Source: Eledone cirrhosa
Taxonomy: Eukaryota
NCBI GenBank assembly: GCA_964016885.1
Contig: OZ024743.1
Span: 13,392,001 to 13,456,000 of the forward strand
Reading direction: 5' to 3'
DNA: 64,000 nt
Part shown: one piece after another, positions 11,417-64,000 of the stretch
Layout: every line of letters begins with the position of its first letter
Numbering within the stretch: the first letter of the stretch is position 1
Made by a program: the position numbers and the translations under genes
Notes under the pieces: model-generated
Seen by the model: the letters and a program-made list of their open reading frames with translations, nothing else
Told to the model about the DNA's origin: nothing
Database searches by the model: none

Positions 11417-15080
<3,664 letters not shown>

Positions 15081-15147
15081 GCCTAACAGTTAGAATCATT
15101 GGCTTACTGTATTCTCTCATGCATACATACATGGACGCACGAACACA

Positions 15148-15202
<55 letters not shown>

Positions 15203-38418: not shown

Positions 38419-40207
38419 TACATAAATTGATGTATGACATACCTCAACTGTCTTGATGGTTTAATTTCAGTCTTGGCAGTGATTTATTACAACAAAACTC
38501 TATGTTTATATACCACAAGAAGGAATAACATGACAAACTAAATATGATGAAGAGAGGGATGTGGAGCGAGATATAAGTATCAATAGGGGGTGGGTATGAG
38601 AAAATATAGAATAAATAAATAAACACATAAGTACATACATGTTAAAATATTTAAATATTCATGTTAGAGAGAAACAGAAGAGAGAGAGAGAGTGCAAAAT
38701 AGAAGAGAGGAGGGAAAGAAAAAAGATGAAGGTAAACAGCAGGAGGGAGAGGGAGATAAAAGAGAGGATGGAATACATAGCTGCAACAGGAAAGAAAGAC
38801 AGAAAGAAAGAAGAAAGGGACATGATGCGTGACAGTTGTTTTCAAATATTAAGTTAGGTAGAAGCGACCAATTAAATACCGTTAAAATTATTACTATCTA
38901 TTGTATTTGGTTATGTTTGAGCGAAATTATACTAATATATTAAATCAAAATTAAACAATATGAAATATTTTCAATGATAATCAGAAGTATAGTTAAATTA
39001 ATAAATTATATTCAATATTTTGTTACAAAATTCAAAATCAGAAACATTTAACCTACAAATAAAGTTTACAAATATAGTAAATGTGTATGAGTATATTTAT
39101 CATAACTTAATCACATATCACCATCTGTAAATGCATTTAATATAATGTTTACAATTAAAATTATAAACATTACAAACAGTTTAAATCAATAATTGTCAAT
39201 TACATATAGGATTAATTAATAGTTATATATACTCTTGAAAGTATTATTATTTCGAATCAACCCAAACCTACTACATGCAACAGTATCAATTATGTTAAAT
39301 ATATATTATTAATCCATTTGGATAAAAACGAAAATTATATACGATAAATGTAAACAAATGAGCTCCGTACAACATATCTGATCTTTTAAATTAGCTAAAT
39401 GCTTTGAAAGCCAGGAGGTATTTCAAATCACAAATTTAAAAAATTCAAGTTATACAAAGACGATTCTAAAACCAAACTAAAGGTATTTAGTCAATCATGA
39501 AATTAACTCACCATATAAAGGAGCCAATATGCAATTTTATAAGGTAAGGTAAAACATTATACTTAATAACAACGGTAGCATTTCAAGAATTATTAATAAA
39601 AGTCAATACTTTTTCATTCATTCAGTGTTTTTTTTCTAAATTTAAATGATGCTTGAAATGATTTTCCAGATTTATGGAGGCAAGTTACAAATAATTCATT
39701 TTTCTTATTAATTAAATTACCATAATTAGTAATTATTAATAGAGTTTCCAAATTGCAAAGATGGCAGATTGGTGTGATGGAAGCATTCCGATATGATTCA
39801 GAGTTTCTAAGTTTAACCCAAGAAATTGAGTATTTTATATTTTACTCTTTTAAATACCATATTAATTGTGATAACGAAGTAGAAAATTTTTTATGTGGAT
39901 TAGAGAAAGAATGTTTATGATTAAAAAAGCGAAGTTTAAAGTTCGATGAAGTTGGACCTATGTAGTTATAAGTAATATTATTATTTGTTTTAATGGTACA
40001 TTTATATACTAAATTTTTATCAAGACATATATTTTGTAAAGGGCATTCAGATTTCCTCCTAGAGTTACAGTTCGATTCAATGCTATTTCCATAACCTAAA
40101 CTGTTCGTATTATCATTGTTAATGTTTCTAGGTGTTCCACTATATATGTTTAAATTATTGTTATTGTTATTCGCATTAACTACTGTATTATTGTTATTAT
40201 TATTATT

Positions 40208-43200
40208 GTTCTTTGAGTCTCAGTCATTGATGTTGGTTAACTATAAAGTTTGTTGAAATGAATATCAAGCCACTACCTGCAGCCTCAGATATTCAGGACG
40301 TATCGGAGTGTTCTTGCTGTTCCCAGCAAGCATGCCTTTTGAAGTGTGCCAAAAAGAGTGGCGGGGCCAATTTTCTTTAACCATCCCTGGAAACCACTTC
40401 TCAAAATGTGGTAAATTGTTTACTTTGCATAGGCGCCAGTGGATCACCCTGCCCATCACATCATGTCTCCAGCCTTTATAGTGAGTCTGGGCTAGGTGTT
40501 TACACTCGGATACAATGTGAACCACAGTCTCCTCTCTCTCTCCACAGATCCTGCACAGTGGGCTAGCCCCCTCCTTGTAAATATGGTGTTTCAACCACTT
40601 CGTTTTGAGGGCTTGCTCTTGAGCAGCCATTAGCATTCCTCCTGTAGCCTTTTTAAGGTCTCCTCTTTTCAACCCGTTCCATGTCTGTGGATCTCTGAAT
40701 TCAGTTTTCTCAAAGAAGGTACTATGAAGGGACTTTTCTCCTTGTTGTTATTTCCTCCTTGGACATCCCCTGGTCTATTGTCCCCTCCTTCAGTACAATT
40801 CTGAGTATTGGGTCCTTACTATCAGTCACGTATTTGTGTAGGTTGTTTTTCTCCATCTGAACACAGTCCTCTATGCTGATAAGACCTCTTCCACCTTCAG
40901 ATCTCCTTAAGTAGAGTCTATCGACATCACTCCTCTTGTGGAACATGTTGTAGATAGTCAATAGCTTCCTAGTCTTCCTATCCATTTCTTTTTGTTCAGC
41001 AACATTCCATCTCAGAATTCCCGCACTGTACATAATAATAGACACAGCTCGGGAATTTACTGCACTTATGGCATTCCTACTGTTCAGATGTGATTTTAAT
41101 ACGCTCCTTACTCTCCGAATGATCTTATCAATTCCTTCATTTTTTCGTTCTTGATGTCATCAGCCTCCAAACACCCAAATACTTGTATCCTTCTTCAGTG
41201 TCAATTTCCTTTATCATCTCACCTGTTCGTACCTGGATTCCGTTGCTTCTGCTCAATTTACCCCTCTTCATCACAAGGATTCCACACTTACTAATACCAA
41301 ATTGCATACATATATCATTGCTGAAAATACGGACAGTGTCTACAAGCACATCCAACTCCTTCTCACTATTCCCGAAGAGCTTAAGATCGTCCACGAAGTG
41401 GTGGTGATTGATAGTAAGCTCTCCCTTTCCCAACTTGTATCCTGCTCTCAATTTTCGCAGTATAATGGTCAGGGGCATCAGGGAAAGGACAAACAACAGA
41501 GGGGACAGACTATATCTCTGGAAGATACCTCTCTTGATCTTCAGGCCTCCCAAGGATTCTTCAGCTGATATTAACTCTGTTTTCCAGGACTTCATACTTT
41601 TGCTCAACAACTGTCTGATGTTATCTGCCACCTTGAAGATCTCTAGGCTTTTGGTGATCCAAGAATGAGGCACCATGTCAAATGCCTTTTTGTAGTCTAT
41701 CCATCCCATGACAAGACCAGTGTGTCTCCTCTTGCAATTCCTCATTACCATCTTATCAATAAGTAACTGGTCCTTTGTACCACGGGACTTCTTTCGGCAT
41801 TTTTTCTGTTCGTCCGGTAACAAGTTGTTTGTGTGGAGGTGATGGTAGATTTCCTCAGACACAATGCTTGTCAACAGTTTCTACATTACGGACAGACATG
41901 TGATAGGTCTATAGTTGGTAACATCATTACCCTTGATTCGGTCATTTCCTTACCAGAATTGTGGTACCTTTTGTCAACTACTCTGGTACCTCACCTGACG
42001 TCAAGCAGTCATTGAACATGGTTGTCAGTTTCGGGTGGAGGGATGTTATATTTCTAATTCAATACCCCTGCACACCATCTGGGCCTGGTGATTTCAAGTT
42101 GGTTAGTTTTTTGGCCTGCCCCTTAAGAGTTTCAACTGTGATACTCAAATCAGTTTTTTGGTGTGACTGTTCACTAATCTCCTTTTGTACTGTCTCAATC
42201 CACACTGCCTGGTCATTATGTTTAACATCCTGCTCCCATATTACTCTCCAGAATGTCTTAGTTTGTTCCACCTCAGGGATCAAGTCGTGGCCTCTTTCTT
42301 TCCCTTCTAGCTGTCCAAACAGCATCTTCTGGTTGTTGTGAAACATGCGGTTCTGTCTATACTGACTGACTCTACTCTCGTATCGCCTAATTTTTGCACT
42401 CTTTGCTACAATGCGTTGCTTCAGTTCCTCTATGATAATATGTAGCTTTTTCTTCCTAGTTTCGTACCTTATTTCCAGTCTATTTTTAGTGTCTATGTTT
42501 TTTAGTGTCCCATTCAGTAGGGACTCAAGCTTTCCAATGTTATTTCTCATTTCCCTGATTTGACTCTTCAGTCGTTTCTTCCACCAAGGTTCTGATCTTT
42601 CTTGTTTGTTGTTTCCTCTCGCTTTTATGCCAAGTAATTTCCTCACCGCATTTGCTGTTGCTTTGAGGATATTGTTGCACTGGTGAAGGCTCCTCGCCTC
42701 AAGGTATGGGGTGACTTTGTTTACCTTAGCTGTTGTTTCTTTTAACTTTTTCCTGTCTACAAATCTTAGGTTCATAGGTTTCCCACTATCATTGTTCATT
42801 TCATCTACCACTAAGTTTAGGATATCAACCAAATCTTCTCCTAGCCCGTCAGCATTCATTTCCTCAATGGCCGTATCTTTGTTCCAGGTATCATGTATTT
42901 CAGCATTCAGATCATTGTCTGCTACGGATGGTTCCTCCGTTCTCTCAACCACTTCACCTTCATTTCCCACTGGCTCGTTTGCCTGGCATACTCCACTTTC
43001 CATTTCCAACCTAATCTCTCTGCTCAGTTCCTCCAGTTCCAGCTCGCTTATCCACCCATTACTTCTTATTAGCCGTGCCGGCCCGGCCAATTTTTGTTGA
43101 TCTAATTTAAATAGACCAATGTCGTTCCAGATGTTATGCATCCGTTTCCTATAGCCTTTCTCCTTGGGGTTACTCTTCAGGTAACATTGCATAACAGCTC

Positions 43201-43540
43201 TATTCATTTCTTTCACCCAGTTGGTTCTGGTCCCTTTCCTTCTTCCTCTTCCTCCAACACCAGCAGTATTTGGATAACAGCCAGGTTCCTGCTGCTGGCC
43301 CAGGGAGCACCTGCAGGATGAGAGACTGTGACATGCCATTCCAGTCCCCACTTCACCGTTATTCGAACTGTTTAGGTTCGACATTTAAGCACTCATAGCG
43401 AGGATTGGTGAATGTATGGTTACATAACTACCGGTGATTTCATCACCCACAGTGATGTCATCACCCCCAGTGATTTTAGCGTGGCACCGTCACGCTGTAG
43501 ACGAACATAAATAAACAAAAAAACAAATAGATAAAAACAC
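40208..43540 (-). mobile_element. R4/Dong-type RLE retrotransposon copy A, near full-length but disrupted, with about 300-bp deletion of the RLE
   Basis: ORFs 42059-43384, 41137-41874 ([12 protein letters not shown]) and CCHC CRICGE...HIVSEC; TAA repeats at both ends. The junction at about 40393 skips the RPD..D region. Confidence 0.92.
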
Positions 43541-43553
43541 ATTATTACTATTA

Positions 43554-43640
43554 CTTTGCCCTTCATCCTTACGGGGTCGATAAAATAAAGTACCAGTAAT
43601 GCACTGGGAAATTGCTGGCTTTGTGCCTAAAGTAGAAACA
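43554..43640 (+). mobile_element. 5'-truncated SINE between two Dong copies, flanked by (ATT)n
   Basis: Core and tail; attattactatta before and (ATT)8 after. Confidence 0.9.
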
Positions 43641-43664
43641 ATTATTATTATTATTATTATTATT

Positions 43665-46600
43665 GTTCTTTGAGTCTCAGTCATTGATATTAGTTAACTG
43701 GAAAGTTTGTTGAAATGAATATCAAGCCACTACCTGCAGCCTCAGATATTCAGGACGTATCGGAGTGTTCTTGCTGTTCCCAGCAAGCATTTCTTTTGAA
43801 GTGTGCCAAAAAGAGTGGCGGGGCCAATTTTCTTTAACCATCCCTGGAAACTCTTTGAGACAGTACCTAGTGCGCCTATGACAATCGGGACCACTTTGAC
43901 TTCATGGCAGTTCCAAATCCTTTTTACCTCCCACTTTAAGTCCTGGTATCGATTAATTTTCTCCTTCTCCACCTCTTGCACTCTCGTGTCGAATGGGCAG
44001 GCCACATCCACAATCAGGCACGATCTTTTTTCCTTGTCCAAAACCACAAGGTCAGGTCTATTGTGTTCCAGTTTCTTGTCCGTCTGTATCCAAAATCCCA
44101 CAGCACCTTCACTTAATCGTTTTCTATCACCGCCTCTGGCTTATGCTCATACCACTTCTCAGAATGCGGTAAATTGTTTACTTTGCATAGGTGCCAGTGG
44201 ATCACAATGCCCATCACATCATGTCTCCAGCCCTTATAGTGAGTCTGGGCTAGATGCTTACACTCGGATACAATGTGAGCCACAGTCTCCTCTCTCTCTC
44301 CACAGATCCTGCAAAGTGGGCTAGCCTCCTCCTTGTAAATATGGTGTTTCAACCACTTCGTTTAGAGGGCCTGCTCTTGCGCAGCCATTAGCATTCCTTC
44401 AGTAGCCTTTTTAAGGTCTCCTTTTTTAAACCAGTTCCATGTCTGTGGATCAGTGAATTCAGTTTTCTCACAGAAGGTACTATGAAGGGATTTTTCATGA
44501 AGGCTGCTCTTTCTCCTTGTTGTTATTTCCTCCTTGGACATCCCCTGGTCTATTGTCCTCTCCTTCAGTACAATTCTGAGCATTGGGTCCTTACTATCAG
44601 TCACGTATTTGTGTAGGTTGTTTTTCTCCATCTGAACACAGTCCTCTATGCTGATAAGACCTCTTCCACCTTCAGATCTCCTTAAGTAGAGTCTATCGAC
44701 ATCACTCCTCTTGTGGAACATGTTGTAGATAGTCAATAGCTTCCTAGTATTCCTATACATTTCTTTTTGTTCAGCAACATTCCATCTCAGAATTCCCGCA
44801 CTGTACCTAATAATAGACACAGCTCGGTAATTTACTGCACTTATAGCATTCCTACTGTTCAGATGTGACTTTAATACGCTCCTTACTCTCCGAATGTATT
44901 CAGATCTTATCAATTCCTTCATTTTTTTTGTTCTTGATGTCATCAGCCTCCAGAACACCCAAATACTTGTATCCTTCTTCAGTGTCAATTTCCTTTATCA
45001 TCTAACCTGTTGGTACATGGATTCCGTTGCTACTGCTCAATTTACCCCTCTTCATCACAAGGACTCTACACTTACTAATACCAAATTGCATACATATATC
45101 ATTGCTGAAAATACGGACAGTGTCAACAAGCACATCCAACTCCTTCTCACTATTCCCGGAGAGCTTAAGATCGTCCATGAAAAGGAGGTGATTGATAGTA
45201 AGCTCTCCCTTTTCCAACTTGTATCCTGCTCTCACTTTTCGCAGTTTAATGGTCAGGGGCACCAGGGCAAGGAAAAACAACAGAGGGGACAGACTATCTC
45301 CCTGGAAGATACCTCTCTTGATCTTCACGCCTCCCAAGGATTCTCCAGCTGATGTTAACTCTGTTTTCCAGGACTTCATACTTTTGCCCAACAACTGTCT
45401 GATGTTATCTGCCACCTTGAAGATCTCTAGGCTTTTGGTGATCCAAGAATGAGGCACCATGTCAAATGCCTTTTTGTAGTCTATCCATCCCATGGCAAGA
45501 CCAGTGTGTCTCCTCTTGCAATTCCTCATTACCATCTTATCAATAAGTAACTGGTCCTTTGAACTACGGGAATTCTTTCGGCATCCTTTCTGTTCGTCCG
45601 GTAACAAGTTGTTTGTGTGGAGGGGTGATGGTAGATTTACTCAGACATGATGCTTGTCAACAGTTTCCACATTACGGACAGACATGTGATAGGTCTAAAG
45701 TTGGTAACATCATTACCCTTGATTCGGTCTTTCATTACCAGAACTGTGGTACCTTTTGTCAACCACTCTGGTACCTCACCTGACATCAAGCAGTCATTGA
45801 ACATGGTTGTCAGTTTCGGGTGGAGGGATGTTATATTTCTAATCCAATACTCCTGCACACCATATGGGCCTGGTGATTTCCAGTTGGTTTGTTTTTTGGC
45901 CTGCCCCTTAAGAGTTTCAACTGTGATACTCAAATAGAGTTTGTTGGTGTGCCTGTTCACTAATCTCCTTTTGTACAGTCTCAATCCACACTGCCTTGTC
46001 ATTATGTTTAACATCCTACTCCCATATTCCTCTCCAGAATGTCTTAGTTTGTTCCGCCCCAGGGATCAAGTCGTTGCCTCTTTCTTTCCCTTCAAGGTGT
46101 CCAAACAGCATCTTCTGGTTGTTATGAAACATGCGGTTCTGTCTATACTGACTGACTCTGCTCTCGTATCGCCTAATTTTTGCACTCTTTGCTACAATGC
46201 GTTGCTTCAGTTCCTCTATGATAATATTTAGCTTTTTCTTCCTAGTTTCGTACTTTATTTCCAGTCTATTTTTAGTGTCTATGTTTTTTAGTGTCCCATT
46301 CAGTAGGGACACAAGCTTTCCAATGTAATTTCTCATTTCCCTGATTTGACTCTTCAGTCGTTTCTTCCACCAAGGTTCTGATCTTTCTTGTTTGTTGTTT
46401 CCTCTCGCTTTTATGCCAAGTAATTTCCTCACCGCATTTGCTGTTGCTTTGAGGATATTGTTGCACTGGTGAAGGCTCCTCGCCTCAAGGTATGGGGTGA
46501 CTTTGTTTACCTTAGCTGTTGTTTCTTTTAACTTTTTCCTGTCTACAAATCTTAGGTTCATAGGTTTCCCACTATCATTGTTCATTTCATCTACCACTAA

Positions 46601-47076
46601 GTTTAGGATATCAACCAAATCTTCTCCTAGCCCGTCAGCATTCATTTCCTCAATGGCCGTATCTTTGTTCCAGGTATTATGTATTTCAGCATTCAGATCA
46701 TTGTCTGCTACGGATGGTTCCTCCGTTCTCTCAACCTCTTCACCTTCATTTCCCACTGGCTCGTTTGCCTGGCATACTCCACTTTCCATTTCCAACGTAA
46801 TCTTTCTGCTCTGTTCCTCCAGTTCCAGCTCGCTTATCAACCCATTACTTCTTATTACCCGAGCCTGCCCGGCCAATTTTTGTTGATCTAATTTAAATAG
46901 ACCAATCTCGTTCCAGATGTTATGCCTCCGTTTCCTATAGCCTTTCTCCTTGGGGTTACTCTTCAGGTAACATTGCATAACAGTTCTATTCAATTCTTTC
47001 GTCTATTTGGTTCTGGTCCCTTTCCTTCTTCTTTTTCCTCCGACACCAGCAGCATTTGGTTGACAGCCAGGTCCCT
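43665..47076 (-). mobile_element. R4/Dong-type copy B, 5'-truncated, with stops and frameshifts
   Basis: [46 protein letters not shown]...Y. Confidence 0.93.
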
Positions 47077-47717
47077 ATGGAGCTATGTCGAACAGTTGCT
47101 GTCGCGTGTGGGACTGATCCGGTTGTCGGCTGAGTCCATTGTGCAGATGGTCTCGCCGTCTTCCTTCGAGGAGGAAGGGCAGGCAGTTTTCATCTGCCTG
47201 GTGGCCATGGCGAAAGAGATTGTGTGGTGGTCAAGGTTAAAAGGATTAAAGACAAACACTTTCCTCTTCGGCGAATCCCTAATTAACTTTTTCAAGTTTC
47301 ACTTGAAGAGAAAAATAAGGGTGGAGAGGCAAGTGCTGCTTTCTAGCAAGTTTGTTGAAAGGTGGGTGAATGTAGCGAGAATGGTCCGAGTGAACGGGAC
47401 CGCTCTGAATATACGTCTATAGTTTGAGAGATGGAAAAATTGAGAGAGGGCGCTTGCCCTGGTAGTCAGTGTGGCCGTGGTCTTTTGTGTGGTTTTCGCC
47501 ACGAGTAACCCTCGGAGGTTTCCCCCCTATTGGGAAATTTTTCATTGTTTCAGTTTTCATTTTATTGTTTATATATATATATATATGTTTTATGTCTTTT
47601 TTTTCTTTTCTTATATAAATAATAAAATTATTTACACGCACAAAACCCACATCGTACCGCCCTGTTCCGTCTGTGATGTTTTTCTTGATGTCATCCCTTG
47701 TGGCCAATAAAGAAATC
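47074..47717 (+). mobile_element. 5'-truncated Tx1-clade LINE (ORF2 C-terminus plus 3' UTR)
   Basis: LWSYVEQLLSRV...INFFKFHL matches 56900-57248. Ends aataaagaaatc followed by (ATT)n. Confidence 0.9.
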
Positions 47718-47728
47718 ACTATTATTAA

Positions 47729-47760
<32 letters not shown>

Positions 47761-47761
<1 letters not shown>

Positions 47762-50700
47762 TCTTTGAGTCTCAGTCATTGATGTTAGTTAACTGGAAAG
47801 TTTGTTAAAATGAATATCAAGCCACTACCTGCAGCCTCAGATATTCAGGACGTATCGGAGGGTTCTTGCTGTTCCCAGCAAGCATGCATTTTGAAGCGTT
47901 CCAAAAAGCGTGAAGGGGCCAATTTTTTTTAACCATCCCTGGAAACTTTTTGAGATAGTACCTAGTGCGCCTATGACAATCGGGATCACTTTGACTTCAT
48001 GGCAGTTCCAAATCCTTTTTACCTCCCACTTTAAGTCCTGGTATCGCTTAATTTTCTCCCTCTCCTTCTCTTGCACTCTCGTGTCGAATGGGCAGGCCAC
48101 ATCCACAATCAGGCACGATCTTTTTTCTTTGTCCACAACCACCAGGTCAGGTCTATTGTGTTCCAGTTTCTTGTCCGTCTGTATCCTAAAATCCCACAGC
48201 ACCTTCACCTCATCGTTTTCTATCACCGCCTCTGGCTTATGCTCATACCACTTCTCAGAATGTGGTAAATTGTTTGCTTTGCATAGGTGCCAGTGGATCA
48301 CCCTGCTCATCACATCATGTCTCCAGCCCTTATAGTGAGTCTGGGCTAGGTGTTTACTCTCGGATACAATCTGAGCCACAGTCTCCTCTCTCTCTCCACA
48401 GATCCTGCACAGAGGGCTAGACACCTCCTTGTAAATATGGTGTTTCAACCACTTTGTTTTGAGGGCCTGCTCCTGCGCAGCCATTAACATTCCTTCTGTA
48501 GCCTTTTTAAGGTCTCCTCTTTTCAACCAGTTCCATGTCTGTGGATCTCTAAAGTTAGTTTTATAACAGAGGGTACTATGAAGGGATTTTCCCTGAAGGC
48601 TGCTCTTTCTCCTTGATGTTATTTCCTCCTTGGACATCCCCTGGCCTATTGTCCCCTCCTTCAGTACAGTTCTGAGCATTGGCTCCTTACTATCAGTCAC
48701 GTATTTGTGTAGGTTGTTTTTCTCCATCTGAACACAGTCCTCTATGCTGATAAGACCTCTTCCACCCTCATATCTCCTTTTCTTAAGTAGAGTCTATCGA
48801 CATCACTCCTCTTGTGGAACATGTTGTAGATAGTCAACAGCTTCCTAGTCTTCCTATCCATTTCTTTCTGTTCAGCAACATTCCATCTCAGAATTCCCGC
48901 ACTGTACCTAATAATAGACACAGCTCGGGAATTTACTGCACTTATGGCATTCCTACTGTTCAGATGTGACTTTAATACGCTCCTTACTCTCCGAAGGTAT
49001 TCAGTTCTTATCAATTCCTTCATTTTTTTGTTCTTGATGTCATCTGCCTCCAGAACGCCCAAATACTTGTATCCTTCCTCAGAGTCAATTTCCTTTATCA
49101 TATCACCTGTTGTTATCTGGATTCCGTTACTACTGCTCAACTTACCCTTCCTCATCACAATGACTTACTAATACCAAATTGCATACATATATCATTGCTG
49201 AAAATACGGACAGTGTCAACAAACACATCCAACTCCTTCTCACTCTTCCCGAAGAGCTTAAGATCGTCTATGAAGAGGAGGTGATTGATGGTAAGCCCTC
49301 CCTTTCCCAACCTGTATCCTGCTCTCACTTTTCGCAGTACACTGGTCAGACTATCTCCCTGGAAGATACCTCTCTTGATCTTCACGCTTCCCAATGATTC
49401 TCCAGTTGATGTTAACTCTGTTTCCCAGGACTTCATACTTTTGCCCAACAACTGTCTGATGTTATCTGCCACCTTGAAGATCTCCAGGCTTTTGATGATC
49501 CAAGAATGAGGCACCATGTCAAATGCCTTTTTGCAGTCTATCCATCCCATGGCAAGACCAGTGTGTCTCCTCTTGCAATTCCTCATTACCATCTTATCAA
49601 TAAGTAACTGGTCCTTTGTACCACGTGACTTCTTTCGGTATCAAGTTGTTTGTGTCGAGGTGATAGTAGATTTCATCGGACATAATGCTTGTCAACAGTT
49701 TCCACATTACGGACAGACATGTGATAGGTCTATAGTTGGTAACATCATTACCCTTGATTCGGTCTTTCATTATCAGAATTGTGGTACCACACTGCCTGGT
49801 CATTATGTTTAATATCCTGCTCCCATATTACTCTCCAGAATGTTTTAGTTTGTTCCGCCTCAGGGATCAAGCCGTTGACTCTTTCTTTCCCTTCAAGGTG
49901 TCCAAACAGCATCTTCTGGTTGTTGTGAAACATGCGGTTCTGTCTATACTGGCTGACTCTGTTCTCGTATCGCCTAATTTTTGCACTCTTTGCTACAATG
50001 CGTTGCTTCAGTTCCTCTATGATAATATTTAGCGTTTTCCTCCTAGTTTTGTACTTTATTTCCAGTCTATTTTTAGTGTCTATGTTTTTTAGTGTCCCAT
50101 TCAGTAGGGACTCAAGCTTTCCTATGTCATTTCTCATTCCCCTGATTTGACCACTCAGTCGTTTCTTCCACCAAGGCTCCGCTATTTCTTGTCTGTTGTT
50201 TCCTCTCGCTTTTATACCAAGTAGTTTCCTCACCGCATTTGCTGTTGCTTTGAGGATATTGTTGCACTGGTGAAGGCTCCTCGCCTCAAGGTATGGGATG
50301 ACTTTGTTTACCTTAGCTGTTGTTTCTTTTAACTTTTTCCTGTCTACAGATCTTAGGTTCATAGGTCTCCCAATATCATTGTTCAATTCATCTACCACTA
50401 AGTTTAGGATATCAACCAAATCTTGTCCTAGCCCATCAGCATTCATCTCCTCAGTGGCCGTATATCTGTTCCAGGTATTATTTATCTCAGCATTCAGATC
50501 ATTGTCTGCTTCGGCTGGTGCTTCCGTTCTCTCGACCTCTTCACCTTCATTTCCCACTGGCTCGTTTGCCTGGCATACTCCACTCTCCATCTCCAAGCTA
50601 ATCTCTCTGCTCAGTTCCCCCAGTTCCAGCTCGGTTATCCCCCCATTGGTTCTTATTACCCGAGCCTGCCCGGCCAATTTTTGTTCATCTAATTTAAATA

Positions 50701-51135
50701 GACCAATCTCGTTCCAGATGTTATGCATCCGTTTCCTATAGCCTTTCTCCTTGGGGTTACTCTTCAGGTAACATTGCATAACAGTTCTATTCAATTATTT
50801 CGTCCAGTTCGTTCTGGTCCCTTTCCTTCTTCTTCTTCCTCCGACACCAGCAGTATTTGGTTGACAGCCAGGTCCCTGCTGCTGAGCCAGGGAGCACCTG
50901 TTGGGTGACAGTCTGTCACATGACATTCTAGTCTCCATTTCACCGTTATTCGAACTGTTTAGGTTCAATATTTAAACACTCTTATCGAGGATTGGCGAAT
51001 GTATGGTTACATAACCACCGGTGAATTCATCGTCTCCGGTGGTTCCGTCACTCCACGTGATTTTTATGTGGCATTATCACGCTGTAGACGAACATAAATA
51101 AACAAACACACAAACAGGCAAAAAAAACCCCAAAA
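47761..51135 (-). mobile_element. R4/Dong-type copy C, near full-length with several internal deletions
   Basis: ORFs 49748-50794, 49155-49592, 48742-49158, 47837-48727. 5' UTR shared with copy A. Confidence 0.92.
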
Positions 51136-53793: not shown

Positions 53794-53824
53794 ACCTTCC
53801 CTCTCTCTCTCTTAGCTTACCAAT

Positions 53825-56800
53825 ATGGCCATATTAAGAGTAGGAAGTTTAAATGTTCGCGGCCTGGGGTCACCCTGGAAGCAGGGTCGCCTGCTCAACG
53901 ACCTCCGGTCGCTGGAAATGGATGTGATTGCCGTAAGCGAGACCAGAATTTCCGACACGCGCGCACTAGCCCCCATTTTCGACGACTATCAGATCTTCGC
54001 ATCTGTTAGCAGGCCAGCAATGGGGGGTGGGGTGGAAGTGCTGTTTAAGAAAGGACAGGATCTCGAGGTAAGGTCGATCTTCCGGGACCCGGACGGTAAG
54101 TTGGTGGTCTTGGATGTGAGCAGTAGCGAAGATGGTGCCTTTAGACTGCTGGCCGTCTACGCCCCTACGGGGGCCGGACGACCTGACTTCTTTAGGCGCC
54201 TGGAAACCTTTCTGGGTACGTCTTGCCCTTTACTGTTAGCGGGGGACTGGAATGGCATCTTAGACGCACGCTGGGATTGTGTGGGAGGAGCCGATAGGAG
54301 CGGGGGGTGCAAAAGCCTCAAGCACCTACTCAGCCAGTTCCAACTGTCTGACAGGTATCGACTAGATTTCCCCAATGTGCCAGTATGGACATGGACCAAC
54401 CGAATGGGGTCATCTAGATCGTATATAGACAGGATCTTCATTAGGAAAATAGATAGAAATAGTGTGGGCTGTCCACTTTTTAAAACGGTCACCTATTCAG
54501 ATCACAAATTTCTGATCTGTACGGTCGACCTAAATAAAACGCGTAGGTTAGGACCGGGTTACTGGAAGCTGAACATGTCATTTCCGGCACGTAAGGCTTA
54601 CAGGGACCGAGTCAACAATTTAGTTAAGCAAAAGTTGACTGGGGGATCATCAACAACAGATGGTGGGTGGCTCTCAAAAGAGAGATTAGAGTAACTTCGA
54701 TAGAGTTCAGCAAAGAACTAGCGTTAGAGAAAAATAGAAAGGAAGGGGAGCTGGTAGATAAGTTAGATGAGGCTATTTGTAGTGGCATCGCAACTGACGT
54801 GCTAGCGGCGAGAATGGCATTAGACCATTTCTTCAATGCCAAACACGAAGGTTGCATTGTCAGAGCTAAGGCGCGTGCGCTGAGAAACGAGGGAACTGAG
54901 GTTGTTCGATGGGCCCGCGTGGCGGAGGCGCAGCGTGGTAATAAAACCACAATTCGGTCGTTGGCGGACCGAGACGGACACGAGATAAGCGATTCCAAGT
55001 GGATGTGTGAGGCCTTTCGCCAGCACTTTGCTCGGTTGTTCAGAGAGAGTGGCGAGTCAGAGAGAGTAGCGGATTTCAGTCCCTACCTTGACGGCTTGAT
55101 GCGCATCTCGACGGTCGACGCTGAGCGCTGCGAAAGGCCGATTACTTCAGCCGAAATTCAGGACGCCCTTGTCGGCTGCATGAGGCGCAAGTCACCCGGT
55201 TTGGATGGCCTGTCCTACGAGCTTTACGTAAATATGCCAGACTTGCTCTCCGAACTCCTCGAAGCACTCTACTGCAACTGGCAGCAGAATGGGAGTATTG
55301 CCAGTTCTGTGAGCAGGGGAGTGGTGATGCTGATAAGGAAAGACGAGAACAAGAGGGATGCATTAGACAACTTCAGGCCCATAACTCTGCTCAACACAGA
55401 GTTTAAGATTTTGGCCAAGGTGTTAGCAAAGAGATTGGCGCTTGTCGTCGAGGATTTGGTTGGGGAGGCGCAAACTTGCGCAATCCCAGCCAGGTCCATA
55501 CACGACAATCTCCACCTCACGCGGTACATCATAGAGAGGGTAGGGTGTAAACCTGGGTTCGGTGGGGCACTGATCAATTTAGATCAATCGAAAGCATTCG
55601 ATAGGGTCGACCATCGGTATCTGGAGTTTGTACTCAAAGCAGCTGGCTTCAGTCCTGTCTTTAGAAGCTGGATCGTTGCAATGCACAGCGACACATGCTC
55701 GGTGGTCAAGGTTAATGGCCACCTCTCGGAACCATTTCGGCTCTCCCGATCTGTCCGTCAAGGGTGCCGTCTCTCTTCCCTTCTGTACGTATTGACTCTC
55801 GAGCCTTTACTGCGGAAGCTGGAGCTGTTGCAGGGCATCCCGCTCGAACCGGGACGTGGAAAGGCGGTGTCGGCTTATGCGGACGACATCACCGTGATGG
55901 TGTCGAACACCTCAGAAATCGAGGTAGTCGGCACCTTATTGAAGGAATATGAAAGGTTGACAGGAGCCAAACTTAACCCGGAAAAGTCGGTGGGCTTGCA
56001 GCTCGGAACCTGGAGAGGCAAGCCCATGCCGTCCAACAGCGTCGTGGGGCGCTGGACGGACGGACCGGTAAAGTTGCTCGGGGTTTGGTTCGGACCAGAC
56101 CTCCAGGTGGAAAAGAATTGGGACGAGGTAACGAGCAGAGAAGCCAGTCTCACCCAAAAATGGGCTGGGAGGAAGCTATCACTGAAAGGTCGCGCGGAGG
56201 TGGCGAATGCGTACACCGCGTCCGTCATCTACTACCGCCTGACCGTCGTGCCTTTCCCTCGTCCGCGCCTCATCAAGCTGGAACGGCTCCTCTTCAAATT
56301 CTTGTGGAGGGGACAAGTTCCGTTGGTGAGGCGGTCCATCTGCTGCCAGCACCCTCTACGCGGAGGGCTGGGCATGCCGTGGCTAATGATGCGCAGACAT
56401 GCGTTGAGGCTGCGACATCTCCAGATATTCTGCCTCAACGGTGAACAGGTGTGGTCGCCGTTTATCAGACGGGCCTTTCCGCAGCTCATTTCTTTGACTG
56501 AGCTGCAGTCCTGGGTCAAGAAGAGACCGAGACTGGGTGACTGGCACCTGGAATGTTGCCAGGCACTCACTGACTTCTACCATGCGGGCAATGCGATCAG
56601 TGGAACTTCCACTCTCGAGTTCTATAGAGGATTAGTGGTGGGCAAGTGCGATGACGCACTCGAAGAAGCTTTGGGCCTCGACGAAGTCGAACTGACCAGT
56701 CTGTACCGGAGGACTTTTGAGCCGGGGACGATGGACAATTTCCAGAAATCCCTCGCTTGGCAGTGCTACCGGAGGGCACTGCCGGTTCGGGATAAACTCT

Positions 56801-57248
56801 ACAGGCACGGAAGTGCTGTCAGACGGACATGCCCAAGATGCGCACAGAACGACGAAACCGTTCTGCACGCACTTGTCCAATGTCCGTGCATTACTGACTT
56901 GTGGAGTTATGTCGAACAGCTGTTGTCGCGTGTGGAACGAATCCGGCTATCGGCCGAGTCCATAGTGAAGATCGATCCACCGCCTTCCTTAGGTCAGGAA
57001 GAGCAGGAAATTTTCCTCTGTCTGGTGGCAGTTGCGAAAGAGATTATATGGTGGACCAGGTTGAAAGGACTAAAGACAGACACTTTTCTCTTCGGCCAAT
57101 CCCTCATCAACTTCTTCAAGTTTCACCTGGAAAGGAAGGTGAGGGTGGAGAGAGAAGTGCTGCCCCCCCCAGTACATTTGCTAAAAGGTGGGTGAATGTG
57201 GCGAGAATGGCTCGTGTGAATGGGCCTACTCTGACCATGCAGCTATAG
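53825..57248 (+). pseudogene. Tx1 ORF2 (APE endonuclease, RT, C-terminal zinc finger) with two frameshifts
   Basis: SLNVRGL, VSET, VYAP, GDWN, IDRIF, SDH; KSPGLDG, FRPITLLN, DQSKAFD, RQGC, YADD; CPRC..ETVLHALVQC. Breaks near 54650 and 57170. Confidence 0.92.
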
Positions 57249-57523
57249 GCTGGCTAACTTGAGGAGAGGGGTGCTCTCCCTGGGTGCCCTAGAAGCGCAG
57301 GGTGGTTCAAGATTGGTGGGGTACCTGAGCACCCCAGGGTCGTACACCCCCTATCGGGGAATTTATTTTGTTATATTTATGCATAGTTTATTTAATATTT
57401 TTATATTTTCATTGTTAAATTAGTCTTGCCATTGTGCACTTTTACTCCACCTTATTGTAAACCCCACTGTCCCTGTCTTTGTATTGTCCCTTACATGTCG
57501 GCCCTGGTGGCTAATAAATGAAA

Positions 57524-57573
<50 letters not shown>

Positions 57574-57592
57574 ATTATTATTATTGTTGTTA

Positions 57593-59041
57593 TTCCTTGA
57601 ATCTCAGTCATTGATGTTGGTTAACTGGAAAGTCCGTTGGAATGAATATCAAGCCACTACCTGCAGCCTCAGATATTCAGGACGTATCGGAGGGTTCTTG
57701 CAGTTCCCAGCAAGCATGCCTTTTGAAGCGTTCCAAAAAGCGTGAAGGGGCCGATTTTCTTTAACCATCCCTGGAAACTTTTGGAGATAGTCCCCAGTGC
57801 GCCTATGACAATCGGGATCACTTTGACTTCATGGCAGTTCCAAATCCTTTTCACCTACCCCTTTAGGTCCTGGTATCGGTTAATTTTCTCCCTCTCCTTC
57901 TCTTGCACTCTCGTGTCGAAAGGGCAGGCCACATCCACAATCAGACTCGATCTTTTTTCTTTGTCCACAACCACCAGGTCAGGTCTATTGTGTTCCAGTT
58001 TTTTGTCCGTCTGTATCCTAAAATCCCACAGCACCTTCACCTGATTGTTCTCCATCACCGCCTCTGGCCTATGCTAATACCATTTCTCAGAATGTGGTAA
58101 ATTGTTTACTTTGCACAGGTGCCAGTGGATCACCCTGCCCATCACATCGTGTCTCCAGCCCTTATAGTGGGTCTGGGCTAGGTGTTTACACTCGGACACA
58201 ATGTGAGCCACAGTCTCCTCTCTCTCTCCACAGATCCTGCACAGTGGGCTAGCCTCCTCCTTGTAAATATGGTGCTTCAACCACTTCGTTTTGAGAGCCT
58301 GCTCCTGCGCAGCCATTAGCATTCCTTCTGTAGCCTTTTTGAGGTCTCCTCTTCTCAACCAGTTCCATGTCTGTGGATCTCTAAATTCAGTTTTCTCAAA
58401 GAAGGTACTATGAAGGGATTTTCCCTTAAGGCTGCTCTTCCTCCTTGATGTTATTTCCTCCTTGGACATCCCCTGGCCTACTGTCCCCTCCTTCAGTACA
58501 GTTCTGAGCATTGGCTCCTTACTATAGGTCACGTATTTGTATAGGTTGTTTTTCTCCATCTGAACATGGAACGCTTCAGGCTTTTGGTGATCCAAGAATG
58601 AGGCACCATGTCAAATGCCTTTCTGTAGTCTATCCATCCCATGGCAAGATCAGTGTGTCCCCTCCTGCAATTCCCCATTACCATCTTATCAATAAGTAAC
58701 TGGTCCTTTGTACCACGTGACTTCTTTCGCCATCCTTTCTGTTCGTCCGGTAACAAGTTGTTTGTGTGGAGGTGATGGTAGATTTCCTCAGACACAATGC
58801 TCGTCAACAGTTTCCACATTACGGACAGACATGTGATAGGTCTATAGTTGGTAACATCATTACCCTTGATACCTAGGCCAGAGGCGGTGATGGAGAACAA
58901 TCAGGTGAAGGTGCTGTGGGATTTTAGGATACAGACGGACAAAAAACTGGAACACAATAGACCTGACTTGGTGGTTGTGGACAAAGAAAAAAGATCGTGT
59001 CTGATTGTGGATGTGGCCTGCCCTTTCGACACGAGAGTGCA

Positions 59042-59042
<1 letters not shown>
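57593..59042 (-). mobile_element. R4/Dong-type copy D: truncated, RT core deleted, with inverted 169-bp self-duplication at its 5' end
   Basis: Deletion junction with filler at about 58567-58577. 58874-59042 is the reverse complement of 57903-58071. Confidence 0.9.
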
Positions 59043-59095
<53 letters not shown>

Positions 59096-62000
59096 GGCGA
59101 CCTACGTAGTAAATCGTATTATCGTGAGCTCCGCAAATGTTTGTTATTTTCAGTTGTTTAAAATTGCCATTTATGGAAAATTTTTATTGTTAACTGCATA
59201 TAAGTGCACATATATTGTTTTCTGAGAAGGACACTGAAAAAGATTGGGGCGTCGAGCCCAAAATTTAAACTTTTATAATTATCAAACAAAAAAAAAAATT
59301 TCTTTGAAAAATCATGTCAGACTCACAGCTGAACCCAGTAGCTGAGAGCCTTCCTCACACACTAACACCTCACACCGACACCACCATTGTAAATATTACT
59401 ACGTTTGCCAACACTAACAATATAAGCAGTAGCAATATATTGAATTTGTCTCATGCAGACATTCATTTCCCGCCATTACCAATGACTGCAGGTGCTGAAG
59501 CCGCCACCACCACCACCACCACAGCGACAACAGAAACAAAATAAATAAATAAATTATCTCGTGCCATCGAAATGGATTCACCAAAAATGAACTCTTCGAC
59601 ACCGAACACCACTGCGAACACCACCACTACAACTGAAACTAAAATTAACAATAACAAAAATAACGATAACAACAACAGCAACAACAATGAGAATAAGAAA
59701 ACAACCCTGTCTTTTGCCAGAGTAGCAAAAAAGTGCGAAGCAATCCAGGTTGCTCAGGAGGAGTTAGAAGAAGCCAAAAGAATGGTAAAGAAAGATGGGT
59801 ACAGGGTCAGCCCCCCCCACACCTAATAAAATGGAGCATCGGCGCCTATGCACCGTGTCTTATCGGACGATTAACATAAAATCGCGCCGTGTGGAACGGG
59901 CATCCGAGTCCCAAATCCAAAAAGCTTTGGGACATGTGTGGGCAAAAAAACCGCCACATCAGACGTGGGCAGAAATATGGAACCGAGGACGTGTTCTTTG
60001 GAACACCACAGGAGGCCAGAGAACACTCCATGGCCCCATTAAGAAGTGACGACTTCACACTCGTCCCAACCTATTGTGGCCAGAGACTCGTGAAGATCAA
60101 GGTGACCCTCGTTCCACCAGCCATCGAAATTCCCTGGCTAATGGCTGCCGTCCTCGCCGGCATCGAGGGCAACAGCAAGATAATCGAAATAGCGAAAGAA
60201 AAGCAGGAGAACTGGTCCGGATCTGGGATGGAGCTCCTGATCCAAGCGGACCAAAAAAGCATTGAGGAGATCCCAGAGGTAATAGATCTCACTGACGGCA
60301 GCCACCTCACCGTAATCGTCGAGGGCAGAAGGCCGAGGTGTCTCGTTTGTGGTGAAGGAACCCACCTAAGGAATTTCTGCCCTCAGGCTAAAAGGTTGAG
60401 GCCACCTCTCTTACCCACCCCAATGACTCAACCATCAACACCACCAGCAGCAGAAATGGAAGCGACAACTGTAGCAGCAACAACAGAAGCAACTGTAACA
60501 GCAACAACCCCAGCAACTGTAGCAAAACCAACACCACCACCACCCAACGCCCCAGAACTAGCACCAGCGCCTACACCATCCACCACGCCACAACCAAAAC
60601 CAACGCCTGTGGAGGAGTTTCCACTCCCCGACCTATCGCAACTGGAGACAGATTGCGACCACGAGGAGTGGGAAACGGTATCAGGAAAAAAGAAAAAAAG
60701 AAAAAAAGAAAAAAAGAAAAAAAGAAAAAGAAACGAAAAAAGAAAAAATCCCCATCCTTCTCCATCCAAAAACAAAATACAGGGGGAAACAAATAAACTA
60801 TCAAAAAAAACGTTAGGACAGCTATGCCACCATCCACACCAGCATCACCAACCCCATCACCACAAACACCAACACCATCACCATCATTAACCCCAACACC
60901 ACCATCACCAACACCACAAAAGTCACCAAAAAGCGAAACATAAACAAACCCACAACAAACGCAAACAAAACAAAACAACCAAAACGATATACACTACACA
61001 GCATTAAATTTGAACAACAACCAATTATTATACTACATCCAACACAACACCAGCATCACAGAAAAAGATTACACAACAATCCAAAAGTTAGCACCACCTC
61101 CACACATACAAATCACTCGCATCACAGAGAAAACGTACACGACACTAAAGCAAAAATTCCCCAAAGACATCGGAGACTTCCGACAAACACTCTCCAGGAG
61201 GATTTATAAGGACATCCTTCCGGAGGAGGTCAGAAGCAGTGAAAAGGATGGAGAAACCATGCTTCCTCTACGAGAAGTAAGGTAACTGGTCTTTCCCATC
61301 TTTTCTACTCCATATGACCTCACTCAGAATAGGCAGGCATAAATGCGCGTGGCTTGGGGTCGTCATGGAAGCAGGGCCACCTGCTCAACGACCTCAAGTC
61401 ACTAAACATAGATGTAGAGGCCATCAGCGAGACCAGAATCTCCGAAGCACGGGCCTTCGCATCGATCTTCGGCGGCTACGATGTGTACGCATCTCCCAGA
61501 CGTCCTGGATCGGGGGTGGAGTTGCTGTGCTTTTTCGGTGAGGTTTGGATCTCGCCATACGGGCCATCTTCCTGGACCCAGAGGGTAAGTTGGTGGTGCT
61601 GGACGTGACCAGCGGAGACGGGCAAGCTTTCAGGCTAGTGGCCGTCTATGCCCCGACAGGAGCAGGGCGGCCTGATTTCTTTGGGAGTCTGGAGAACTAC
61701 CTTGGAACGTCCCGCTCTTTAGTGGTAGTGGGCGACTGGAACGGGATCTTAGATGCACGCTGGGACTGTGTGGGATTAGCGGATAGGGGAGGAGGGTGCA
61801 AGAGCCTCACCAACTTGCTCAGGCGTTTTGAACTGTCTGACAGGTACCGATTGGATTTCCCGAATGTGCCAATGTGGACTTGGACAAATCGCATAGGGTC
61901 ATCCAGATCATATCTAGATAGAGTATTTTATAGGGAAATAGATAGGTCTAGCTTAGGCTGTCCACAATTCACGATAGTCAGCTACACGGACCACAGATTC

Positions 62001-64000
62001 CTGATCTGTGTGCTTGACTTAGATAGGCTTCATAGAGGAGGACCCGGCTACTGGAAGCTAAACGCGTCCTTACCAGCGCGCAAGGCCTACAGAGACCGGA
62101 TTAGCGAACTAGTTAAGCGTGCGTTGACGGGGGCCATCCTCAACAACAAGTGGTGCTTTGCTCTGAAAAGAGCGATTAGAATAGAATACATTAGGTTTAG
62201 TAAAGCTTTAGCAATAGAGAAAAATAGTGCTGAGGGAGAACTAGTTAGAAAATTAGACGAGGCGCTTAGCAAAGGCATTGCGACCGACGTACTTGCGGCG
62301 AAATTGGCCCTTGACCAATTCTTCAATGCAATGCACGAAGGCTGCGTTGTCAGAGCTAGGGTGCTTGCTTTCAGACACTAGGGGACGAAAGCCGTTCAAT
62401 GGGCCCGTCGTGGCAACAAAGCCACGATCCGGTCTTTGGTGGACCACGACGGGCGCATGCTACTCGATCCCGGGCAAATGTGTGAAGCTTTTCAACGACA
62501 CTTCGCTCAGCTATTCGGGGGCAGCGGTGGGGCGGGTCGAGGGATGGACTTTAGTGTCTACCTCGACGGATTGCCGCGGCTCTCGGCCACTGAGGCGGAG
62601 TGTTGCGAAAAGCCGATAACAGCTGCTGAAGTAAGGGAGACAATGACTGGCTGCACAAGGGGTAAATTGTCCACGACAACCTCCACCTCATGCGATACAT
62701 CGTAGAGAGGGTAGCTAGGGAACCCGGCACGGGTGGGTCCTTGATCAATTTAGATCAGTCGAATGCTTTCGATAGGGTCGACCATCGTTACCTAGCGGCA
62801 GTCCTGAGGGCAGCTGGCTTTGGGCCCGTCTTCAGAGGCTGGATCGCTGCCATGCACAGCGACATATGCTCTGTGGTGAGAGTGAACGGTCAACTTTCGG
62901 AACCGTTCAACATCATGCGCTCGGTCCGCCAAGGATGTCCCCTCTCGTCCCTCTTGTACGTATTGACTCTCGAGCCATTACTGCACAAACTGGAGACGTT
63001 GAGGGGCGTCCCGCGCGAACTAGGATGCGGAAGATCCGTGTCAGCATATGCGGACGATGTCACCGTAGTGGTGTCGAACGCCAAACACATCGAGGCGATC
63101 GGCACTACACTAAGAGAATACGAAGCGGTGACAGGAGCAATGATCAACCAGGAAAAGTCAGTGGGACTGCAGCTCGGCACCTGGAGAGGCAGCTCCATGC
63201 CGTCCAACAGCGTCGTCGGATGCTGGACGGACGGACCGCTTAAATTACTAGGGGTCTGGTTCGGTCCGGACCTCCAGACGGACAAAAACTGGAACGAGGT
63301 GACGAGCAGTATTGCCACCTCACTCAGAAATGGGCGGAGAGGAAGCTATCCCTGAAAGGTCGAGCGGAGGTGGCTAACGACACATCTCGTCCGTCATCTG
63401 CTACCGCCTGACCGTCGTACCTTGTCCTAAGCCCCGCCTGACTGCGCTGGAGCGTTTGCTCTTTCGTGTTTTGTGGAAGGGACGCGCTCCGATGGTCAGG
63501 CGGTCCATCTGCTGTCAACACTCGCTACGTGGAGGGCTGTGAATGCCGTGGCTGATGATGCGCAGACACGCGCTCAGGCTACGACATCTCCACCTCTTCC
63601 TCGACGGTGATCAGGTGTGGTCGCCGTTTGCTAGACACGTATTTCCCCAGCTCCTGTCCTTGACGGAGCTGAAGTCATGGGTCAAGCGAAGACCGAGAGG
63701 GAGCGCCTGGAGACTGGAATGTCTTCAGGCGCTCACAGCCCTCGACCAATCGGGCAATGTGATCGGTGGAAACTCCACCTCGGCGTTCTATAGAGGATTA
63801 GTGGAGGGGAAGAGCGACGACGTACTTGGGGAAACTCCAGGCGTCGACGAAAATAAACTAGCCAATCTCTTCGGATGAACTTTCGGGCCGGGCCCTATGG
63901 ACAACTTCCAGAAATCTCTGGCCTGGCAGTGCTACCGAGGAGCCTTGCCAGTTCGGGATAAACTCTACAGGCATGGAGGTGCCGTCAGCCGGGCATGTCC
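59096..64000 (+). mobile_element. Tx1-clade LINE copy 2 (different subfamily, disrupted, runs off the window)
   Basis: Starts GGC right after (ATT)18. ORF1 GRRPRCLVCGEGTHLRNFC; ORF2 VYAP, GDWN, YLDRVF, TDH, DQSNAFD, QGCPLS, YADD. About 300-bp deletion near 62665. Confidence 0.92.

What the first reader, a model, noticed from the sequence alone, without database searches (positions are those of the whole stretch)
40186..64000. Self-renewing (ATT/TAA)n retrotransposon array with strict opposite polarity of two unrelated LINE clades
Seen order: (ATT)n <DongA (ATT)n SINE> (ATT)n <DongB|Tx1> (ATT)n <DongC ... att Tx1> (ATT)n <DongD (ATT)n Tx1>. All four RLE elements are minus-strand; all APE LINEs and the SINE are plus-strand. 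There are three tail-to-tail junctions (43641-43664, 47718-47760, 57526-57592). Inference: two different endonucleases nick opposite strands of the same microsatellite, and each insertion leaves new target for the other. The result is a 24-kb or longer array 5 kb upstream of a TLR.
Basis: partly seen in the sequence, partly recalled or inferred. Interest (0 to 1): 0.8.

Follow-up and report, generated by a model that had tools for sequence, protein, structure and literature searches.

The report
Two retrotransposons share one microsatellite back-to-back
In this octopus-like genome two unrelated kinds of jumping gene sit in the same three-letter repeat at thousands of places, almost always facing opposite ways, likely because their enzymes start on opposite DNA strands; this window holds one ordinary example of the chains they build.

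Summary
The array is real and mapped nearly as described. The polarity rule holds genome-wide in this 3.0-Gb octopod-type genome. One Tx1-type 5' end follows (ATT)3 at 2,474 places and an AAT run at 0. The Dong-type 5' end follows AAT in 1,355 matches (some double-counted) and ATT in 4, all at (AAT)n(ATT)m switches. 5'-truncated copies are flanked on both sides, so the repeat is a target, not only a tail. The SINE duplicates 11-18 nt starting at pyrimidine^ATTAT, which suggests a strand-specific nick by the APE enzyme. Duplicated target is re-used, and the two LINE kinds cluster together. Corrections: one tail-to-tail junction is SINE-Dong; a 169-bp plus-strand Dong piece lies inside the window; the array runs about 35 kb and flips polarity past the window; similar arrays are common, so the TLR is probably a bystander. 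Known precedents: Dong in TAA repeats, microsatellite-specific Tx1 families, and TRAS/SART in telomeric repeats. Not found in 8 literature searches: ATT-targeting Tx1 plus SINE, and an APE and an RLE family sharing one dispersed target in opposite polarity. Nicking itself is inferred, not assayed.

The parts
40186..40207 (+). Left ATT run, degenerate then (ATT)4; 3' flank of DongA
40208..43540 (-). DongA: RLE-type LINE, cut in its 5' UTR, ~300-bp internal deletion at 40393, ORF broken
43541..43552 (+). Degenerate ATT spacer between DongA 5' end and SINE
43553..43640 (+). 3' part of an abundant ~190-250-bp SINE
43641..43664 (+). (ATT)8, SINE 3' end against DongB 3' end
43665..47076 (-). DongB: RLE-type LINE, 5'-truncated, frameshifted
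47078..47717 (+). Tx1C: 3' 640 bp of an APE-type LINE, fused head-to-head to DongB with no repeat
47718..47759 (+). ATT run with (ATT)10, Tx1C 3' end against DongC 3' end
47760..51860 (-). DongC: RLE-type LINE with internal deletions and part of the long 5' UTR (right edge approximate); CCHC, RHD and PD..D..K region intact
51905..51927 (+). Degenerate ATT run at the DongC / Tx1A head-to-head junction
51928..57525 (+). Tx1A: near full-length APE-type LINE, ORF1 with zinc knuckle, ORF2 APE-RT-CCHC, frameshifted
57526..57592 (+). (ATT)15 plus degenerate Dong tail, Tx1A 3' end against DongD 3' end
57593..58870 (-). DongD: young subfamily (99.4% to copies elsewhere), truncated and internally deleted
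58874..59042 (+). Inverted 169-bp copy of DongD's RLE region: the one plus-strand Dong piece in the window
59042..59095 (+). (ATT)18, 5' flank of Tx1B
59096..64000 (+). Tx1B: second APE-type family, 71-78% identical to Tx1A; ends at window position 64,662, followed by (ATT)5 and a second Dong family on minus
32879..34963 (-). Toll-like receptor ORF (LRR + TIR), ATG 5.2 kb from the array; neighbour, not counted as part of the system

Best explanation
Dong/R4-type RLE LINEs sit in (AAT)n on their sense strand, Tx1-type APE LINEs and a SINE sit in (ATT)n on theirs, and chains of them likely grow because each enzyme primes reverse transcription on its own strand of the same repeat and each insertion leaves repeat on both sides. 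SHOWN: both kinds carry the repeat at 5' and 3' junctions, also when 5'-truncated; polarity relative to the repeat strand is nearly exceptionless genome-wide; APE-side insertions duplicate 11-18 nt that begin at ATTAT directly after the element's last base; new insertions land in the flank of older ones; the families cluster. INFERRED from the target-primed reverse transcription rule: the APE nicks the (AAT)n strand at a T/purine step (5'-ATAAT^R), the RLE makes its first nick on the (ATT)n strand. INFERRED: the SINE uses the Tx1 machinery. INFERRED: an array is the sum of independent insertions at different times, and fold-back copying at a junction makes the rare (AAT)n(ATT)m switches that flip local polarity. 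The TLR is likely a bystander.
For: Whole-genome exact counts: Tx1B 5' end after (ATT)3 2,474, after AAT in any phase 0; Dong 5' end after AAT 1,355 matches, after ATT 4, each at an (AAT)n(ATT)m switch. Best-hit loci outside the window: Tx1B 5' 29 of 29 ATT, Tx1A 5' 28 of 29, Tx1A 3' 28 of 29, Dong 5' 27 of 29 AAT, Dong 3' 28 of 29. Elements abutting 253 distinct runs: Dong 159 of 159 AAT-sense, Tx1 136 of 136 ATT-sense, SINE 79 of 81. Truncated copies start right after the repeat at arbitrary points. SINE: 29 of 41 informative duplications start at ATTAT in unique flank, base before is C/T in 29 of 29 against 67% background, p 9e-6; that base lies outside the primer, so annealing cannot choose it. 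Tx1 duplications of 15-17 nt in L056, L015, L028; Dong duplications in L297, L299. Clustering on the first 83 Mb of C1: 5 of 31 Dong 5' ends within 2 kb of a Tx1B 5' end, all opposite strand, null 0.23; 16 of 99 Tx1B gaps under 15 kb, null 1.8. Bombyx Dong has (TAA)n on the same, sense side (PMC3774820, passages).
Against: No nicking assay; strand choice is read from junctions. For Dong the nick site is hidden by its own (AAT)-type tail, and informative duplications were not above the shuffled control in the automatic test (3 of 61, control mean 1.4). Ten more SINE duplications begin in the tail of an older SINE with A at the -1 place; counted in, C/T is 29 of 39, near background. The test for which family came second at 20 tail-to-tail junctions was inconclusive. 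Exceptions: the inverted 169-bp piece in the window, an old minus-strand Dong 5' UTR remnant next to plus-strand (AAT)18 just past the window, and an old 76-84% Dong-like fragment flanked by ATT in the grid (2 of 5 Dong contacts there). SINE-Tx1 3'-end likeness is modest (shuffle p 0.008-0.07). Best-hit loci include a few segmental duplicates (L008/9, L023-25).
Confidence: 0.7

Rival explanations
1. Targeting is real, but polarity is set by annealing of the RNA 3' end to the primer: read-through transcripts end in (AUU)n or (AAU)n and can pair with only one strand, while the endonucleases nick AT-rich repeat on either strand.
For: Dong carries a family-fixed degenerate AAT tail. Tx1 and SINE RNAs could read into the flanking repeat. 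Sister Tx1 families with the same 3' motif are followed by (TATC)n, which tails alone could also keep up. Annealing at priming is discussed for L1 in PMC3812793 (passages).
Against: Tx1 copies can be followed directly by GTT, ATC or ACT units, so no fixed tail is added. The pyrimidine before ATTAT in 29 of 29 unique SINE targets is outside the pairing. It may still hold for Dong, or act together with nicking.
Confidence: 0.2
2. The repeats are only 3' tails of the elements; there is no target choice and neighbours meet by passive accumulation in repeat-rich regions.
For: Both kinds end in the repeat, and the elements are abundant (Tx1-like 6.6%, SINE 2.4%, Dong 1.2% of the grid).
Against: The repeat stands at 5' junctions of full-length and truncated copies, where a tail cannot be; mutual orientation is not random (44 Dong-Tx1 pairs across one run, none against the rule).
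Confidence: 0.03
3. The array arose by local tandem or segmental duplication of one Dong-Tx1 unit.
For: Repeated Dong-(ATT)n-Tx1 pattern; some arrays elsewhere are segmentally duplicated (L008/9, L023-25).
Against: The four Dong copies are 90-94% identical to each other over a shared 470-490 bp and each is closer (93-99%) to copies elsewhere; breakpoints differ; the three Tx1 copies are different families, 71-79% alike.
Confidence: 0.02
4. The array is kept by selection at this place, as a regulator of the TLR gene or as a dedicated small-RNA locus.
For: 5.2 kb upstream of the TLR ATG; longer than most arrays I mapped; mixed orientation would give antisense RNA on read-through.
Against: Comparable mixed arrays at all 6 other regions mapped, which were picked for holding such junctions; 8 of 60 grid stretches hold such ends; all window copies are decayed. 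No expression data were obtained.
Confidence: 0.05

Closest known systems
TRAS and SART of Bombyx mori telomeres
   Same: Two non-LTR families insert into one short tandem repeat in opposite orientation and form mixed arrays (PMC10088271, passages). Strand-specific cleavage by their endonucleases is recalled, not read here.
   Different: TRAS and SART are both R1-clade APE elements in telomeric repeats. Here one partner is an RLE element and the other an L1-group APE element, the target is a dispersed interstitial microsatellite at thousands of sites, and a SINE shares it.
Dong (R4 clade): Bombyx Dong, DongAg, snail DongBg
   Same: TAA microsatellite target, also in a mollusc (PMC3812793, passage); (TAA)n upstream on the sense strand (PMC3774820); single ORF with RT and RLE. 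Dong-R4 is listed as recently active in Octopus vulgaris (PMC13282606).
   Different: No 5' HDV-like ribozyme was detected by Rfam; long 5' UTR with ~330-bp tandem units; two families share the target; RT phylogeny with named Dong not tested.
Microsatellite-specific Tx1 families: Kibi, Koshi, crocodilian Tx1
   Same: APE-type two-ORF LINEs that insert into a microsatellite: (TC)n, (TTC)n, (TTCC)n/(TTTC)n (PMC4494074, passages); shared target used there to link a SINE to its Tx1 partner.
   Different: Target is (ATT)n, with sister families in (TATC)n; neither target appears in the passages read. Repbase and Dfam entries could not be seen.
R1 and R2 in 28S rDNA (recalled)
   Same: An APE and an RLE element share one multicopy locus.
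   Different: They use different unique sites of a gene in the same orientation, and insertion does not multiply the target.

Membership tests
R4/Dong clade | Single ORF with RT, then CCHC finger and PD..D..K restriction-like endonuclease; no APE | tested here: met
   RVT_1 and no Exo_endo_phos in Dong ORFs; weak match to R2 RLE region, E 0.002; 1,136-1,141-aa open frame in 9 of 20 fetched copies
R4/Dong clade | Insertion in TAA repeats with (TAA)n on the sense strand | tested here: met
   Bombyx polarity from PMC3774820
R4/Dong clade | RT phylogeny groups with named R4/Dong | not testable with these tools
   No named reference among 120 listed homologs or 10 clusters looked up; label rests on domain order and target
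R4/Dong clade | HDV-like ribozyme at the 5' end | tested here: inconclusive
   No ribozyme family at E<=1 in 7 loci; Rfam models may miss it
Tx1 clade (L1 group) | ORF1 with zinc knuckle; ORF2 APE-RT-CCHC; endonuclease of L1 type | tested here: met
   C-x2-C-x4-H-x4-C in both ORF1s; Exo_endo_phos, RVT_1, zf-RVT; best PDB matches are L1 endonucleases, E 2e-8
Tx1 clade (L1 group) | Sequence-specific insertion with target duplication | tested here: met
Tx1 clade (L1 group) | RT phylogeny separates it from L1 proper and places it with Tx1L/Kibi/Koshi | not testable with these tools
   Homologs are unnamed or hypothetical; Tx1 versus another L1-group clade is not settled
TRAS/SART system | Two families in one tandem repeat in opposite orientation | tested here: met
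TRAS/SART system | Both are R1-clade APE elements in telomeric repeats | tested here: not met
   One partner is RLE-type; target is interstitial (ATT)n along chromosomes. Works like it, is not a member.
TRAS/SART system | Strand-specific cleavage shown in vitro | not testable with these tools
   needs purified domains
tRNA-type SINE mobilised by the Tx1 families | Short, non-coding, target duplications, same target and strand as the LINE | tested here: met
tRNA-type SINE mobilised by the Tx1 families | tRNA-derived head; 3' end shared with the partner LINE | tested here: inconclusive
   A- and B-box-like words seen (consensus recalled); no tRNA call; 3' motif likeness to Tx1B/C/A at shuffle 15, 36, 138 of 2000, none to Dong

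The most novel reading that the evidence does not exclude
Octopods carry a genome-wide, self-assembling landing-pad system: an APE lineage with its SINE seeds and multiplies ATT repeat, an RLE lineage occupies the other strand, and together they account for about half of the genome's (ATT)n runs and for many repeat hotspots. Because every array holds the two lineages face to face, read-through from one makes antisense RNA against the other, so the arrays would be thousands of mutual-silencing small-RNA sources built by target choice alone.
Probability: 0.15. Interest if true: 0.8.

Novelty: new variant of a known kind. Interest (0 to 1): 0.48.

Why it matters
It gives a mechanism for part of the repeat clustering reported in octopus genomes and for the origin of many (ATT)n microsatellites there (19 of 34 sampled runs touch these elements). 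It names a likely LINE partner for a SINE that covers over 2% of the genome. It offers a natural test set for target specificity: two unrelated endonuclease types on opposite strands of one 3-bp repeat, and sister APE families on (ATT)n versus (TATC)n whose hairpin-loop residues differ. Intact Dong ORFs exist, so the assay is within reach. The principle itself, opposite polarity in a shared repeat, is already known from TRAS/SART.

Tried and rejected
Local duplication rejected. Tail-only reading rejected. Order of insertion across families: the spacer between Tx1-type 3' ends and Dong 3' ends peaks at 18 nt (54 of the first 100 listed, hand count), near the duplication length; but 20 such loci showed no diagnostic tail letters repeated at the 5' side: inconclusive, and 3 of the 20 were a SINE variant ending like Tx1, so the 164 junctions are not all LINE-LINE. 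Automatic search for Dong duplications did not beat its control. Rfam: no ribozyme or tRNA; ARAGORN none. Metagenome scan gave mostly 25-34% relatives with no informative flanks. Named references for a clade tree were not found, so no tree was built. Sequencing runs: no RNA holder listed, so expression and piRNA were not tested. Earlier scan findings: none returned. Three primary papers (Dong 1993, Kojima and Fujiwara 2004, SART1 1997) are not held. PMC3124438 held nothing on this.

Full report
Observation. Four copies of a single-ORF RT + restriction-like endonuclease element lie on minus; three copies of a two-ORF APE-RT element and a SINE 3' part lie on plus; ATT runs separate most of them. 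All window copies are broken by frameshifts, stops or deletions. The APE domain matches L1 endonuclease structures; the C-terminal region of the minus elements matches the R2 endonuclease region weakly. The labels Dong and Tx1 rest on domain order, target and the literature; no named reference was available for a tree. Amendments: the junction at 43641 is SINE-Dong; a 169-bp Dong piece lies on plus at 58874-59042, 98.8% identical to DongD's own 3' region; the array goes on to about position 74,940, with a second Dong family and a polarity flip.

Host. The window is G000:C4:13392001-13456000 of a 3.0-Gb assembly. The best named relatives of the APE-type ORF2 are from Argonauta hians, 61-66%, so the host is likely an octopod. 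Dong-R4 and L1-Tx1 are listed as recently active in Octopus vulgaris (PMC13282606, first third of text and passages) and as expanded in coleoids (PMC8967140, passages).

Is the repeat a target or a tail? Five searches of the own genome gave 29 outside loci each. Flanks: Dong 3' 28 of 29 AAT, Dong 5' 27 of 29 AAT, Tx1A 3' 28 of 29 ATT, Tx1A 5' 28 of 29 ATT, Tx1B 5' 29 of 29 ATT (a few loci are segmental duplicates). The one Dong 3' flank scored ATT is, by my reading, L017, where Dong abuts another repeat's end. 5'-truncated copies begin right after the repeat at arbitrary points of the element. So the repeat is a target.

Polarity. Exact whole-genome counts: (ATT)3 + Tx1B 5' end 2,474, reversed control 0; AAT run + same end 0. 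AAT + Dong 5' end 1,355 matches, with double counts on the forward strand; ATT + same end 4, and all 4 are (AAT)n(ATT)m switches with AAT further upstream. Over 174 targeted loci, 240 of 253 distinct runs abut a library element: Dong 159 of 159 AAT-sense, Tx1 136 of 136 ATT-sense, SINE 79 of 81; 44 runs have Dong on one side and Tx1 on the other. These loci were chosen by element ends, so I also took 60 fixed-grid 10-kb stretches: Tx1 8 of 8, SINE 13 of 13, Dong 3 of 5, both exceptions from one old 76-84% fragment. In one other organism's contigs the Tx1A-type 3' end is also followed by ATT repeat (89 loose ends, run X6); the other three runs listed no such end among the rows shown.

Where the nick likely falls. 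Of 143 distinct SINE copies, 65 have an exact duplication of 10 nt or more; 41 are informative; 29 start at ATTAT right after the SINE's last base, length 11-18 nt, mode 18. The base before is C or T in 29 of 29 (background 67%). Ten further duplications start in the tail of an older SINE, where that base is A; they show re-use of fresh target but weaken the statistic if pooled. Tx1-type copies give 15-17-nt duplications that start at the element's last base (3 informative cases among 67 copies with both junctions). By the target-primed rule the primer is the AAT strand, cut at T/purine, as for L1-type enzymes (established knowledge). The -1 base is outside the primer, which favours enzyme choice over annealing for the APE side. 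For Dong, duplications are visible in L297 and L299 but were not above control overall, and its own tail hides the nick; the ATT-strand first nick is inferred from orientation only.

Array growth. On the first 83 Mb of C1, 16 of 99 gaps between Tx1B 5' ends are under 15 kb (uniform null 1.8), 14 of 16 same-strand. Five of 31 Dong 5' ends lie within 2 kb of a Tx1B 5' end, all opposite (shifted null 0.23); 11 within 20 kb, 10 opposite. Short tail-to-tail junctions of the window's type occur 164 times, control 0, some with a SINE variant (3 of 20 checked). Six other regions, picked for such junctions, hold mixed arrays. The window's Dong copies are each closer to copies elsewhere than to each other, so the array is a sum of independent insertions. 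Which family came second at a junction could not be shown. In the grid 19 of 34 (ATT)>=4 runs abut an element against 2% expected. Nine of 20 fetched full-length Dong copies keep a 1,136-1,141-aa frame; none of 20 Tx1A copies has a frame over 988 aa.

TLR. The LRR-TIR ORF starts 5.2 kb from the array. Eight of 60 grid stretches hold such LINE ends, so the adjacency needs no explanation. I have no evidence either way on regulation.

Known versus new. Dong elements target TAA in silkworm, mosquito and a snail, and Tx1-clade Kibi and Koshi target TC and TTC (PMC3812793 and PMC4494074, passages; the two papers assign TC/TTC alike). Bombyx Dong has the same sense polarity (PMC3774820, passages). 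[quoted passage not shown] PMC4640811, PMC4758252 and PMC9115989 (passages) add background and do not mention this target. Eight searches of the open library found no report of ATT-targeting Tx1 in cephalopods or of an APE and an RLE family sharing one microsatellite. Kojima and Fujiwara 2004, Repbase Reports and Dfam could not be read and may already hold these targets; supplements were not opened.

Verdict. Real, general and cleanly patterned; the mechanism is a new variant of a known kind. The window is one instance among many. Interest 0.48.

Noticed in passing
L238:6237+, L239:7712+ and 8755+, L241:2129+ and 7698+, and window-relative ~110,800 (L065): Sister Tx1-type families (71-75% DNA identity, same 3' motif) are followed, and in L239 also preceded, by (TATC)n instead of (ATT)n. 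Their predicted endonuclease hairpin loop differs (NHSGKSRSY, SNRNGSSRSY versus TNR[MI]GSSRSY). A target switch inside one lineage.
   Followed up: partly
window 43553-43640 and genome-wide: The SINE's 3' end resembles the Tx1 3' ends (CCTTGTG...GAAA), and a longer variant ends in GAAATC exactly as Tx1 does: likely SINE-LINE pair.
   Followed up: partly
L381-L384, L062:849, L264, L291: (AAT)n(ATT)m palindromic switches at Dong junctions, 13 of this order against 3 of the other in fetched loci (four loci were fetched for this feature). Possible fold-back copying that flips array polarity.
   Followed up: partly
L061 (window-relative 64,679-68,660 and 69,664-74,836): A second Dong-type family with a different 3' end shares the AAT target; the first family's 5' UTR holds 1-3 tandem ~330-bp units, and 5' junctions sometimes repeat the first 5-15 nt of the element.
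   Followed up: partly
L008, L015, L030, L075, L139, L280, L044, L297: At least three further unclassified repeat ends recur next to ATT runs in fixed orientation; two look like 5' ends of more Tx1-type families.
   Followed up: no
window 32879-34963 (-): Single open frame for a Toll-like receptor, 694 aa from the first Met, LRR + TIR.
   Followed up: no
window 11400-15200: About 3.7 kb of interrupted (AT)n, over 80 short runs.
   Followed up: no
window 32050-32217: Two SINE 3' parts in inverted, head-to-head arrangement, 0.7 kb downstream of the TLR stop.
   Followed up: no
Best-matching copies of both LINE kinds fall mostly on the four largest contigs and C28; the grid also found most LINE ends on C1-C4. 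Not normalised.
   Followed up: no
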